Virus record (IMG/VR): IMGVR_UViG_2534682161_000017
Span: 1-28,791 of that record
DNA from: a virus
Lineage: Duplodnaviria; Heunggongvirae; Uroviricota; Caudoviricetes
Direction: 5' to 3' (one strand)
DNA: 28,791 nt
Program-made: the position numbers
In this document: positions 21,001 to 24,000 of the stretch, piece after piece
How positions within the stretch are numbered: the stretch's first letter is position 1
Layout: each line of letters opens with the position of its first letter

Positions 21001-24000
21001 AAGGCGTTCCTCGATATGCTGGCGTGGTCAGAGGGAACTGATAACGGACGTCAGAAAACCAGAAATCATGGTTATGACGTCATTGTAGGCGGGGGGCTAT
21101 TCACTGATTACTCCGATCACCCTCGCAAACTTGTCACGCTAAACCCCAAACTCAAATCAACAGCAGCCGGACGTTACCAGCTTCTTTCCCGTTGGTGGGA
21201 TGCCTACCGCAAGCAGCTTGGCCTGAAAGACTTCTCTCCGAAAAGTCAGGACGCTGTGGCATTGCAGCAGATTAAGGAGCGTGGCGCTTTGCCGATGATT
21301 GATCGCGGTGATATTCGTCAGGCAATCGACCGTTGCAGCAATATCTGGGCTTCACTGCCGGGCGCTGGTTATGGCCAGTTCGAGCATAAGGCTGACAGCC
21401 TGATTGCAAAACTCAAAGAAGCAGGCGGAACGGTTAGAGAGATTGAGGTATGAGCAGAGTCACCGCGATTATCTCCGCTCTGATTATCTGCATCGTCGTC
21501 TGTCTGTCATGGGCGGTCAATCATTACCGTGATAACGCCATCGCCTACAAAGAACAGCGCGATAAGGCCGCATCCACAATCGCTGACATGCAGAAGCGTC
21601 AACGTGATGTAGCAGAACTTGACGCCAGATACACAAAGGAGCTTGCTGATGCTAATGCGACTATCGAAAGTCTCCGTGCTGATGTTTCTGCTGGTCGTAA
21701 GCGCCTGCAAGTCGCCGCCACCTGTGCAAAGTCAACGACCGGAGCCAACAGCATGGGCGATGGAGAAAGCCCAAGACTTACAGCAGATGCTGAACTCAAT
21801 TATTACCGTCTCAGAAGTGGAATCGACAAGATAACCGCGCAGGTTAACTACCTGCAGGAATACATCAGGACGCAATGCCTGAAATGATCGGGCGATGAAA
21901 ACCAAAAAACAGGAGCAATACATGACTAAGCTTTATCACCGCATCTCAACTTTTCTCTCTGGGTGCTGGGCGTTTATCACGTCTATTTCGTTCGCCATCT
22001 TTAGTTTCGGTAGCACAGCATGCTCGCTTAGTCGGGTATGTGGCGTGCTATTTCAGCACTAGCGCCGAAATTTTTACCTGAAAAGGCTGTTTGGCGAATT
22101 GTAGAGCGAATGTGTAGTGAGAGCGTTCGCGAGAAGATTAACGTATTTGGGCGTCATCCTCGAAATACAGGCGCATTGTGCAGTTCGTTACTGTAGTCAT
22201 TACAAAGCCCATCAATGGGTGGGCTTGATAATGAAACCGGAATTTATTCTGGGCCACCAGTTAACGGCAGTACAGCGAAACAACCCAAGCCAGTAAGTGG
22301 GGAAATAACACTGGCAGCCACTGAAAGATGAACCTCCTGCCTTATGGCAAAAAAGATTCTTTGTGGTGGCGGACTGATGGAAAGACATCCACTGAATCGA
22401 TGATAAACAAGTGGAATAGGTTGCGATGGTTTCCGTGAACAAAGATCCGAAGGAAGGCGTTGAATACATCACTGGTGCTGATGGTGTGAAAAGGCCAATG
22501 GCTTATTACAAAGCTGCTGAAGAGAGGGCAAGAATGGAAAATCCCCCTAAATGCGGATCATTTTTCGACATGCTGGACCTTCAATGGAAGTTGTGAACAA
22601 CTAACAGGTCGCTCAGGCGGCCTTTTTTATTGCCATCACAAAAGCCATTCCCTACATAGTGGCTTTGATAATGGCTTATACCCTACACGGGATAACTTAA
22701 CTGATATCCCTTTTAACGGATAAACGGAGCCAACAATGGCAGAGATTATTCCCATGACTGAAGAACAGAAGTTCAAGTTAGAAATTTACCGACTGCTATC
22801 TAAGAACAATTCAGCGGCAGAGGAAGCTTTTGCATTCATTGGTGCTGACCAACTGAAACTGGAATTGTTCAAGTTGCACTACAACGATGGCGGTGCAAAT
22901 CCAGACTTCACATCTCGCACTATCGAAGCGGTGCGTAAATCGAAGGAAGCGTTAGACCTGTTCACTACCGGAGCATAAACATGGCAACTCAAGGTTTCGA
23001 CAACCCATCCAAATTCCGCGATGAATGGGATAAGCAAGCAGAAGGGAAATAATCAATATGGCAGCACCAAAGGGCAACCGATTTTGGGAGGCCCGCAGTA
23101 GTCATGGGCGAAATCCTAAATTCGAATCGCCTGAGGCGCTGTGGGCTGCTTGTTGTGAATACTTCGAGTGGGTGGAAGCTAACCCGCTATGGGAGATGAA
23201 GGCGTTCTCGTATCAGGGTGAAGTAATACAAGAGCCTATCGCCAAGATGCGAGCGATGACCATTACCGGCCTCACTCTGTTCATTGATGTGACGCTTGAA
23301 ACATGGCGCACATATCGCCTGCGAGAAGATTTATCTGAAGTCGTTACGCGAGCAGAACAGGTCATCTACGACCAGAAATTCTCTGGCGCAGCCGCTGACC
23401 TTCTCAACGCTAACATCATCGCCCGTGATTTGGGCCTCAAAGAGCAGTCGCAAGTTGAAGACGTGACACCTGATAAGGGAGATCGCGATAAGCGGCGCTC
23501 TCGTATCAAGGAGCTATTCAACCGTGGAACTGGACGCGATTCTTGATAACCTGAGCGACGAAGAGCAAATCGAGTTGCTCGAGCTACTCGAAGAAGAAGA
23601 GAACTACCGGAACACACACCTGCTATATGAATTTACGCCATACAGCAAGCAGCGTGAGTTCATCGACGCCGGGCATGACTATCCAGAGCGATGTTTTATG
23701 GCTGGTAACCAGCTTGGTAAGTCATTTACTGGTGCTGCTGAAGTCGCGTTTCACCTTACCGGTCGTTATCCGGGCACAAAAGGCTATCCTGCTGATGGTA
23801 AATATGGCGGTGAGTGGAAAGGTAAGCGTTTCTATGAGCCTGTTGTCTTCTGGATTGGTGGAGAGACAAACGAGACTGTAACCAAAACGACTCAACGCAT
23901 CCTGTGCGGTCGTATCGAAGAGAATGGTGAGCCAGGCTACGGTTCCATACCGAAAGAAGACATCATTAGCTGGAAGAAGTCTCCTTTCTTTCCGAACCTT

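What the first reader, a model, noticed from the sequence alone, without database searches (positions are those of the whole stretch)
22063..22735. About 670-bp stretch between lysis and packaging modules with no convincing long ORF
This is the position where lambda carries bor and other lysogenic-conversion cargo. Here there are only tiny ORFs (46 and 56 aa) and one terminator-like hairpin (22607..22628). It may be a decayed cargo gene, a small RNA, or regulatory DNA.
Basis: seen in the sequence. Interest (0 to 1): 0.35.

Follow-up and report, generated by a model that had tools for sequence, protein, structure and literature searches.

The report
Cargo-gene slot of P22-like prophage

Summary
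There is no long supported ORF in 22063-22735, and a good intrinsic terminator lies at 22606-22628. But the stretch is a mosaic of known parts, not empty DNA.

1. 22063-22196 is the out-of-frame 3' end of a 91-aa gene (phrog_34701, starts 21922). A 1-bp loss in a G-run (22034-22036) breaks it. All 11 other copies seen have GGGG.
2. 22426-22596 (56 aa) is an intact, conserved gene (phrog_5425). It has homologs down to 61% identity in Yersinia, and its variation is concentrated at third codon positions.
3. 22251-22389 is a non-coding core, 94% identical to the P22 small RNA 'P22G' (PMC13397905). It occurs in 185 phage records and 1120 of 5426 complete E. coli genomes, and is almost never annotated in the records shown.
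4. Two copies of a two-tier stem-loop (22191-22236 and 22627-22676) are supported by compensatory base changes. In relatives, copies usually sit right after cargo-gene stop codons.

In relatives the same point after the core carries no insert, Gp49, a 24-aa mini-gene or other small genes. In P22 the pid moron lies between the core's hairpin and orf80.

This is a new member of a known kind, of modest interest.

The parts
21922..22196 (+). Frameshifted copy of a 91-aa gene (phrog_34701; HK140_069 homolog). Frame A runs 21922-22062 (46 aa, premature TAG at 22060-22062). Frame B runs 22038-22196 and carries the conserved C-terminal domain.
   Evidence: The 21895-22062 ORF, which contains frame A, matches phrog_34701 positions 1-40. 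The frame B ORF matches positions 40-91. The reconstructed 91-aa protein matches the profile over its full length, E = 2.2e-55. The family has 50 clusters, nearly all 90-91 aa.
22034..22036 (+). Site of the 1-bp deletion (GGG here, GGGG in relatives) that breaks the 91-aa gene.
   Evidence: N7, HK140, L137, AF14 and the 99.8%-identical MFDS1019527 prophage all have one more G.
22191..22236 (+). H1: two-tier stem-loop immediately after the stop codon of the 91-aa gene. Outer stem UCAUUA/UAAUGA, CA/GA internal loop, inner stem AAGCCCAUC/GGUGGGCUU, loop AAUG.
   Evidence: Covariance model R1 scores it 55.3 bits, E = 2.5e-11, on the + strand only. It forms in the fold. Covariation is shown.
22251..22389 (+). 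Conserved non-coding core, homologous to nt 45-186 of the P22 small RNA P22G. The most invariant part is 22264-22389.
   Evidence: 134 of 142 aligned positions match P22G (P22G sequence from PMC13397905 Table 2). Matches to 22190-22425, the core with its flanks, occur in 185 phage records; the core alone occurs in 1120 of 5426 E. coli genomes, unannotated in 10 of the 12 rows shown. Indels and start-codon losses rule out the small ORFs inside it. No PHROG, Pfam, Rfam or tRNA match.
22390..22676 (+). The exchangeable cassette present in this phage: 5' UTR, ORF56, terminator and H2. It is inserted exactly after ...GGAAAGACATC.
22426..22596 (+). ORF56: intact 56-aa gene of unknown function (phrog_5425).
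   Evidence: phrog_5425 match E = 8.6e-41 over the full profile. Seventeen homolog clusters reach 61% identity in Yersinia, with an invariant EGVEYI.G.D.VKRPM.YYK core. Variable sites by codon position are 2/1/9. PGAP annotates the homolog WP_128430325.1. The upstream in-frame GTG is closed by TAG at 22417-22419, so the start is ATG 22426 (read from the sequence).
22606..22628 (+). Intrinsic terminator after ORF56 (AGGUCGC-UCAG-GCGGCCU followed by U6).
   Evidence: The same terminator follows the Yersinia homolog and a DUF551-like cassette.
22627..22676 (+). H2: second two-tier stem-loop. Outer stem GCCAU/AUGGC, inner stem AAAGCCAUU/AGUGGCUUU.
   Evidence: R1 scores it 51.0 bits, E = 2.9e-10. 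It forms in the fold.
22677..22735 (+). Conserved leader of the DUF2560 (orf80) gene with its Shine-Dalgarno sequence GGAG. This is the right-hand anchor shared by all cassette types.

Best explanation
The stretch is the accessory-gene (moron or cargo) slot of the late operon of a P22-like lambdoid prophage, not a single element.

Its parts, read 5' to 3':
(a) the out-of-frame tail of a 91-aa gene that normally follows the spanin genes, inactivated here by a 1-bp deletion;
(b) stem-loop H1;
(c) a roughly 140-nt conserved non-coding core that in P22 accumulates as the small RNA P22G;
(d) a cassette made of the intact 56-aa gene, an intrinsic terminator and stem-loop H2;
(e) the conserved leader of the DUF2560 gene.

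Shown here: the composition, the frameshift, the coding status of ORF56, the presence/absence polymorphism of cassettes at one fixed junction, and the base-pair covariation of the stem-loops.

Inferred:
- The whole stretch is transcribed as part of the Q-antiterminated late mRNA. No sigma-70-like promoter was found on the + strand.
- ORF56 is translated from its own weak Shine-Dalgarno sequence.
- The terminator is read through during lytic growth and only stops non-antiterminated transcription.
- The H stem-loops act in the RNA as intercistronic stabiliser or processing hairpins, in the manner of the RNase III sites between phage T7 cistrons.
- Together with the core and the leader, the H stem-loops supply the conserved homology at which cassettes are exchanged by recombination.
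- The core yields a stable processed RNA fragment like P22G.

The confidence of 0.8 applies to the composition and the cargo-slot reading. The RNA-level roles of the H stem-loops and the core are much less certain, about 0.4.
For: Mosaic structure and exact junctions.

Frameshifted gene. The family is real and its C-terminal domain is constrained, with 19 synonymous against 2 non-synonymous codon differences between L137 and L140. It always lies just after the spanin genes.

ORF56 is a real gene. Its homologs lie in the late operons of lambdoid prophages.

Core equals the P22G region. Its spread.

H element:
- It occurs exactly twice in the 28.8-kb window, both on the + strand.
- 90.6-91.9% of cells are paired, against 30-51% when the partners are slid, and 6-9 pairs change on both sides.
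- Many U.G pairs favour folding of the transcribed strand.
- It was found, without being in the training set, after cargo-gene stop codons in Yersinia and Enterobacter prophages and another prophage contig, and between Q and an HNH gene.

P22 carries the pid moron between the core's hairpin and orf80, and its authors call the locus a moron site (PMC3573128; PMC8835761). No promoter-like site on the + strand and a terminator at 22606.
Against: - There are no expression data for this prophage.
- The evidence for P22G is one small-RNA-seq study (374-488 RPM). The RNA could be a degradation intermediate. Its first 44 nt, which come from the 3' end of rha, have no counterpart here.
- The core shows no covariation because the copies are 90-99% identical, and 33 nt of it were fixed by my search pattern.
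- Conservation of non-coding DNA at about 95% is normal for any shared lambdoid segment and does not by itself prove function.
- Covariation in the H element comes from a handful of sequence classes, so the independent events are few, and alignment A6 was fitted to the model.
- RNase III or stabiliser activity is untested.
- The frameshift could be a sequencing error.
- The promoter scan is a simple consensus scan and could miss a weak or non-sigma-70 promoter.
Confidence: 0.8

Rival explanations
1. The conserved core (22251-22389) is a trans-acting regulatory small RNA, the P22G homolog, with specific phage or host targets. It would act, for example, through its exposed ACCUCCU stretch that resembles the anti-Shine-Dalgarno end of 16S rRNA.
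For: P22G accumulates in infected cells and in vesicles. The core keeps its sequence across at least four different left flanks and five right flanks. It folds more stably than shuffles, z = -2.6. Polymorphisms in 22317-22354 fall mostly in predicted loops.
Against: The core has no promoter of its own and no U-tract terminator. There is no Rfam family and no covariation. No target is known. It is absent from lambda and from the Yersinia and Enterobacter relatives, so it is dispensable.
Confidence: 0.25
2. The core and the H stem-loops have no RNA function. They are only shared 'linker' DNA that survives because recombination between lambdoid phages happens within it, or because it is young hitch-hiking DNA.
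For: Mosaic breakpoints coincide with the edges of these segments. Identity of 90-99% is typical of any shared lambdoid segment.
Against: Compensatory changes keep the H stems paired while their sequence changes, including in distant Yersinia and Enterobacter versions. Many U.G pairs and UACG loops fit RNA rather than DNA. A discrete RNA is reported from the core in P22.
Confidence: 0.3
3. The whole 670 bp is one decayed cargo gene.
For: 22063-22196 is indeed an out-of-frame gene fragment.
Against: The gene fragment ends at 22196. The rest aligns to non-coding sequence in more than 100 phages, with indels, and to an intact separate gene. The other ORFs have no protein-family match.
Confidence: 0.02
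4. The apparent frameshift in the 91-aa gene is a sequencing or assembly error, and the gene is intact in the real prophage.
For: It is a single-base difference in a homopolymer. The 99.8%-identical prophage in MFDS1019527 has GGGG.
Against: The run is short (3 versus 4 G). The other genes read in the window are intact: lysozyme, terminase and Rz. The MFDS1019527 record is the one that carries several frameshifted phage genes.
Confidence: 0.3
5. A small hydrophobic peptide is encoded on the minus strand of the core. It would start at GTG 22321, after AGGAGG, and be 19-25 aa long, for example a toxin-like peptide.
For: A strong AGGAGG lies 11 nt upstream of the GTG (read from the sequence). Some polymorphisms are synonymous in this frame.
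Against: Indels at about 22298 and 22302 occur inside it in several copies. The stop position varies. Variable sites are spread over all three codon positions. There is no PHROG match. The reported RNA is from the + strand.
Confidence: 0.03

Closest known systems
P22 pid moron locus, between orf25 and orf80 (Cenens et al. 2013, PMC3573128; Wolput et al. 2022, PMC8835761)
   Same: It lies in the same interval in a close relative, between the conserved core and orf80/DUF2560, although in P22 it sits after the core's hairpin and orf25 rather than directly after the core. It is a small accessory gene with a Rho-independent terminator, present in some relatives and absent or replaced in others.
   Different: pid is transcribed divergently from its own promoter and encodes an unrelated 86-aa protein. 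ORF56 points the same way as the late genes and has no detectable promoter.
P22G small non-coding RNA of phage P22 (PMC13397905, 2026)
   Same: Window 22251-22389 is 94% identical to nt 45-186 of P22G, on the same strand and in the same place, upstream of the stem-loop and orf80.
   Different: The first 44 nt of P22G derive from the 3' end of rha, which this phage lacks. Expression here is unknown. The function of P22G itself is unknown.
lambda bor / lom-type lysogenic-conversion morons (Juhala et al. 2000 concept; my own knowledge)
   Same: The cargo slot lies downstream of Rz and ahead of the packaging genes.
   Different: There is no sequence or family relation to Bor. The cargo here is co-oriented with the late operon and there is no sign of lysogen-specific expression.
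RNase III processing hairpins between cistrons of phage T7 mRNAs, e.g. R1.1 (my own knowledge)
   Same: Two-tier hairpins (lower stem, small internal loop, upper stem) sit directly after coding regions in a long polycistronic phage transcript.
   Different: There is no sequence relation. The stems are shorter (about 14-18 bp in total). Cleavage is untested.
Integron attC sites (my own knowledge)
   Same: A gene-plus-hairpin cassette organisation, with conserved outer arms and variable, covarying inner arms.
   Different: The conserved ends are CAUUACA/GAUAAUG, not RYYYAAC/GTTRRRY. The frequent U.G pairs point to RNA rather than single-stranded DNA. No IntI-type integrase is implied.

Membership tests
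phrog_5425 (small phage protein, function unknown), for ORF56 22426-22596 | Full-length match to the family profile | tested here: met
   E = 8.6e-41, residues 4-56 against profile 1-54 of 54
phrog_5425 (small phage protein, function unknown), for ORF56 22426-22596 | Behaves as a protein-coding gene: conserved residues, third-position-biased variation, intact frame | tested here: met
   21 invariant columns across 13 sequences down to 61% identity. Variable sites by codon position are 2/1/9.
phrog_34701 (91-aa protein that follows the spanin genes) | Sequence match to the family profile | tested here: met
   Profile positions 1-40 match in one frame and 40-91 in another.
phrog_34701 (91-aa protein that follows the spanin genes) | Uninterrupted reading frame of about 91 aa | tested here: not met
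   GGG instead of GGGG at 22034-22036 gives a 46-aa product. Eleven of 12 copies are intact.
Moron (extra gene unit in a phage operon, sensu Hendrix/Juhala) | Present in some close relatives and absent or replaced at the same junction in others | tested here: met
   Of the 135 copies, 69 have no insert and about 49 carry one of four other insert types at the same point.
Moron (extra gene unit in a phage operon, sensu Hendrix/Juhala) | Own terminator | tested here: met
   22606-22628
Moron (extra gene unit in a phage operon, sensu Hendrix/Juhala) | Own promoter | tested here: not met
   No sigma-70-like site on the + strand in 21400-23200. This is a simple consensus scan, so weak promoters are not excluded.
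P22G sncRNA | Sequence homology over the RNA | tested here: inconclusive
   nt 45-186 of 204 align at 134/142. nt 1-44 and 187-204 have no counterpart.
P22G sncRNA | Accumulation of a discrete RNA | not testable with these tools
   Only the published P22 data exist.
Any Rfam family / tRNA / tmRNA | Covariance-model score at or above the gathering threshold | tested here: not met
   Best hits score 13-20 bits against thresholds of 32-59. ARAGORN finds none.
Intrinsic (Rho-independent) terminator | G+C-rich stem-loop followed by a U-tract | tested here: met
   7-bp stem with 5 G-C pairs, followed by T6
T7-type RNase III intercistronic site | Two-tier hairpin with an internal loop between cistrons | tested here: met
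   Structure and covariation; position after stop codons
T7-type RNase III intercistronic site | Cleavage by RNase III | not testable with these tools
   No RNA-end data for this phage
Integron attC | RYYYAAC ... GTTRRRY core sites | tested here: not met
   The conserved arms are CATTACA ... GATAATG.
lambda Bor | Protein similarity to the Bor family | tested here: not met
   No Pfam hit for the 56-aa, reconstructed 91-aa or 36-aa ORFs of the stretch

The most novel reading that the evidence does not exclude
The two-tier 'H' stem-loop (CAUUACA, covarying stem-loop, GAUAAUG) would be an undescribed RNA motif marking the 3' end of accessory-gene cassettes in the late operons of lambdoid prophages across Enterobacterales (E. 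coli, Salmonella, Enterobacter, Yersinia). It would act as an intercistronic processing or stabilising signal and also as the conserved joint for cassette exchange. Under this reading, the core (P22G) would be a non-coding cassette of the same system.
Probability: 0.25. Interest if true: 0.6.

Novelty: new member of a known kind. Interest (0 to 1): 0.33.

Why it matters
For annotation:
- One real small gene (ORF56) should be called.
- One gene should be flagged as frameshifted.
- A widespread conserved non-coding segment, present in about a fifth of complete E. coli genomes and almost never annotated, can be linked to a reported P22 small RNA.

For biology: the locus gives a clean example of cassette exchange at a single fixed junction in a late operon. 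In relatives the neighbouring slot carries Tad2-like and anti-CRISPR-annotated genes. A covarying stem-loop usually follows cargo genes. If that stem-loop is a processing or insulating signal, it would explain how foreign genes are added to a tightly packed late transcript without disturbing it. None of this is very surprising to a phage specialist.

Tried and rejected
- Rfam at permissive thresholds gave nothing meaningful, and ARAGORN found no tRNA or tmRNA.
- RNAalifold on 111 unique core copies, both strands, gave no covariation because the copies are too similar, and 33 nt were fixed by my search pattern.
- A single-sequence nhmmer search with the core (22196-22400) against all loci held at that point found no diverged copy in the Yersinia loci.
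- The small ORFs inside the core are rejected. MNLLPYGK... and MAKKILCGGG... lose their start codons in some copies, and the minus-strand GTG ORF contains indels. None has a PHROG or Pfam hit.
- The minus-strand 86-aa and 46-aa ORFs have no family match.
- AlphaFold2 of ORF56 gave pLDDT 70, and Foldseek against PDB and BFVD found nothing with E < 0.5. AlphaFold2 of the 91-aa protein gave pLDDT 61, too poor to search.
- The promoter scan found no + strand site.
- An ops/RfaH-like or nut-like reading of GGCGGACTGATG was considered by eye and dropped (7 of 12 matches to ops).
- Prophage Pas sRNAs were looked at in the literature; they lie upstream of the holin and are unrelated. AgvB and AsxR were considered from memory only, and the permissive Rfam scans listed no such family.
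- Lambda itself has no H element.
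Full report
SETTING

The window is a P22-like (Lederbergvirus-type) lambdoid prophage of E. 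coli. Its late genes run in this order:

| Feature | Coordinates |
|---|---|
| Q-type antiterminator | 19613-20236 |
| holin | 20670-20993 |
| lysozyme | 20977-21453 |
| Rz (Rz1 embedded) | 21450-21887 |
| DUF2560/orf80 | 22736-22978 |
| small terminase | 23058-23546 |
| large terminase | 23524-25023 |

The closest record is a prophage in E. coli MFDS1019527, 99.8% identical over 21888-22740. PGAP annotates nothing there between the spanin gene and DUF2560.

THE OBSERVATION

- On the + strand, no ORF longer than 59 aa overlaps 22063-22735.
- The only longer ORF is 86 aa on the minus strand, and it has no family support.
- The hairpin at 22606-22628 is a good intrinsic terminator.

WHAT THE STRETCH IS MADE OF

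Alignment with phages N7, HK140 and Gally, and with prophage loci L130, L137 and L138, splits the interval between Rz and DUF2560 into five segments with sharp borders.

(1) A frameshifted gene, 21922-22196.
- HK140 annotates a 91-aa protein here (HK140_069). The reconstructed protein matches phrog_34701 end to end, E = 2.2e-55.
- In the window, the 21895-22062 ORF (which contains 21922-22062) matches profile positions 1-40. A different frame (22038-22196) matches positions 40-91.
- The family is real. It has 50 clusters, almost all 90-91 aa, in E. coli, Enterobacter and Citrobacter, and always lies directly after the spanin genes.
- Its C-terminal 35 residues are under strong purifying selection, with 19 synonymous against 2 non-synonymous codon differences between L137 and L140.
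22063-22196 is the displaced, conserved C-terminal coding part.
- Whether the missing G is biological or a sequencing error cannot be decided here.

(2) Stem-loop H1, 22191-22236. It starts at the stop codon of that gene.

(3) A conserved non-coding core, 22251-22389.
- Matches to 22190-22425, the core with its flanks, occur in 185 phage records, including P22, HK97, HK620, ST64T and Sf101.
- The core alone occurs in 1120 of 5426 complete E. coli genomes at 95-99% identity, unannotated in 10 of the 12 rows shown.
- Among the 135 copies, its left neighbour comes in at least four unrelated forms and its right neighbour in at least five, while the core itself stays nearly constant.
- It is not coding. 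Copies differ by indels at about 22298, 22302 and 22348. The ATGs of both + strand mini-ORFs are lost in some copies. Variable sites show no codon periodicity. There are no family hits.
- A 2026 paper (PMC13397905) lists ten small RNAs seen by RNA-seq in P22-infected Salmonella. One of them, P22G, is 204 nt on the + strand, 'downstream of ORF201, no known function'. It aligns to window 22251-22389 at 134 of 142 positions.
- The first 44 nt of P22G come from the 3' end of rha. This suggests the RNA is a processed fragment of the late or rha transcript rather than a primary transcript.
- I found no promoter, no Rfam family and no covariation. The core folds somewhat better than shuffles, z = -2.6.

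(4) The cassette, 22390-22676.
- ORF56 (22426-22596) matches phrog_5425, E = 8.6e-41.
- It has 17 homolog clusters down to 61% identity in Yersinia enterocolitica, with an invariant EGVEYI.G.D.VKRPM.YYK motif.
- Variable nucleotide sites fall 2/1/9 over the three codon positions. All three differences from phage Gally are synonymous.
- PGAP calls the homolog in strain AF14.
- Homologs lie in late operons of lambdoid prophages, usually between lysis and terminase and once between Q and the holin.
- The gene is followed by the terminator. The same terminator follows the Yersinia homolog and a different cassette gene.
- The function remains unknown. The AlphaFold2 model (pLDDT 70: a beta-hairpin plus two helices) has no significant structural neighbour.
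- Stem-loop H2 (22627-22676) closes the cassette.

(5) The leader of DUF2560, 22677-22735. All cassette types share it.

THE SLOT

The point directly after ...GGAAAGACATC (22389) is a fixed cassette junction. The 135 copies (134 fetched loci plus the window) break down as follows:

| What follows the junction | Copies |
|---|---|
| No insert (core, H, leader) | 69 |
| 126-aa Gp49-family gene | about 18 |
| 24-aa mini-gene | 13 |
| ORF56 cassette (includes the window) | 10 |
| 53-aa + 54-aa pair, or a DUF551-like gene | 8 |

The remaining copies keep the no-insert hairpin but no leader was found within 3 kb of it.

P22 carries the divergently transcribed pid moron beyond the core's hairpin and orf25, before orf80. 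Its discoverers had already called this locus a moron site where relatives have no insert or another insert (PMC3573128). Upstream of the core, relatives carry Rha, KilA-like, Tad2-like or 'anti-CRISPR'-annotated genes.

THE STEM-LOOPS

H1 and H2 share one architecture:
- an outer stem of 5-8 bp, whose 3' arm is the conserved GAYAAUG;
- a CA/GA internal loop;
- an inner stem of 9-10 bp;
- a loop of 3-8 nt, often UACG.

Evidence for the structure:
- On 22 distinct sequences of three sequence classes, 91.9% of cells pair, against 30-51% when the partners are slid. Six pairs change on both sides.
- A covariance model built from these sequences finds exactly two hits in the 28.8-kb window, both on the + strand, at 55 and 51 bits. 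The reverse strand scores 13-14 bits.
- It also finds untrained copies in three Yersinia loci, two Enterobacter loci and one metagenomic locus. These have different, still complementary, inner stems and lie directly after cargo-gene stop codons.
- One further copy lies between Q and an HNH gene in L027.
- On 50 distinct model-aligned copies, 90.6% of cells pair and nine pairs show changes on both sides. This alignment leans towards the model.
- Frequent U.G pairs, for example 48 of 50 at one position, and UACG loops point to folding of the transcribed RNA strand rather than DNA.
- Lambda itself has no such element.

HOW IT MOST LIKELY WORKS

- The interval is part of the late polycistronic mRNA made from PR' under Q antitermination. 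This is inferred from gene order, common orientation and the absence of a promoter.
- ORF56 is translated from ATG 22426. The upstream in-frame GTG is closed by TAG at 22417-22419.
- The terminator is overridden by Q-modified polymerase. This follows from established lambdoid biology and was not tested.
- The H elements probably act as intercistronic RNA hairpins that stabilise or process the flanking cistrons, as RNase III sites do in T7 mRNAs.
- With the core and the leader, they provide the conserved sequence at which cassettes are swapped. Both roles are inferred; only the structure and the mosaic borders are shown.
- The core probably gives a stable processed fragment like P22G. A specific regulatory role is possible but unsupported.

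VERDICT

This is an ordinary but nicely resolved cargo slot. The one element that may be new is the covarying cassette-terminal stem-loop.

Noticed in passing
window 22981-23052 (+): An unlisted 23-aa mini-[26 protein letters not shown], lies between DUF2560 and the small terminase, with GGAG 8 nt upstream. A 24-aa relative (MSAEGFNNPSKFRDEWDSSVKSK, strong Shine-Dalgarno sequence) occurs as its own cassette at the ORF56 junction in 13 loci such as L031 and L012.
   Followed up: partly
L136, L138, L139 (about 3054-3533); L004 (phage Huey) 997-1497 and 1732-2112: In relatives, the slots on either side of the core carry Tad2-like (PF11195) genes (upstream) and genes annotated as anti-CRISPR (one on each side in Huey). 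This suggests the region is an anti-defence cargo hotspot.
   Followed up: no
L135 4001-4177: An ORF56 homolog (74% identity) sits between the Q antiterminator and the holin rather than after the lysis genes. The gene therefore moves between the two accessory slots of the late operon.
   Followed up: no
L027 5001-5045: An H-type stem-loop (inner stem AAGCGUC/GGCGCUU) directly follows the stop codon of a small gene between Q and an HNH endonuclease gene. The motif is therefore not confined to the slot after the lysis genes.
   Followed up: partly
L129 (E. coli MFDS1019527 prophage): The nearest database relative has its lysozyme, large terminase and portal genes flagged as frameshifted by PGAP, and a 1-bp deletion inside ORF56. 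This probably reflects assembly quality, so it is a poor reference for deciding single-base differences.
   Followed up: no
window 22038-22196 and protein alignment A5: The 91-aa family has a variable hydrophobic N-terminal half and an almost invariant C-terminal 35 residues (WRIVERMCSESVREKINVFGRHPRNTGALCSPLL), kept by purifying selection. The AlphaFold2 model is poor (pLDDT 61) and the function is unknown.
   Followed up: partly
window 20237-20669: A 433-bp ORF-poor gap lies between the Q-type antiterminator gene and the holin. It is presumably PR' with its leader and terminator; P22 has the small RNA P22E at the equivalent place. Not examined.
   Followed up: no
window 22334-22346: The core contains ACCUCCUGCCUUA, which resembles the 3' end of 16S rRNA (ACCUCCUUA), in a predicted internal loop. 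CCUCC is kept in both common variants (CCUCCUGCC and CCUCCAGCC). No test was possible.
   Followed up: no
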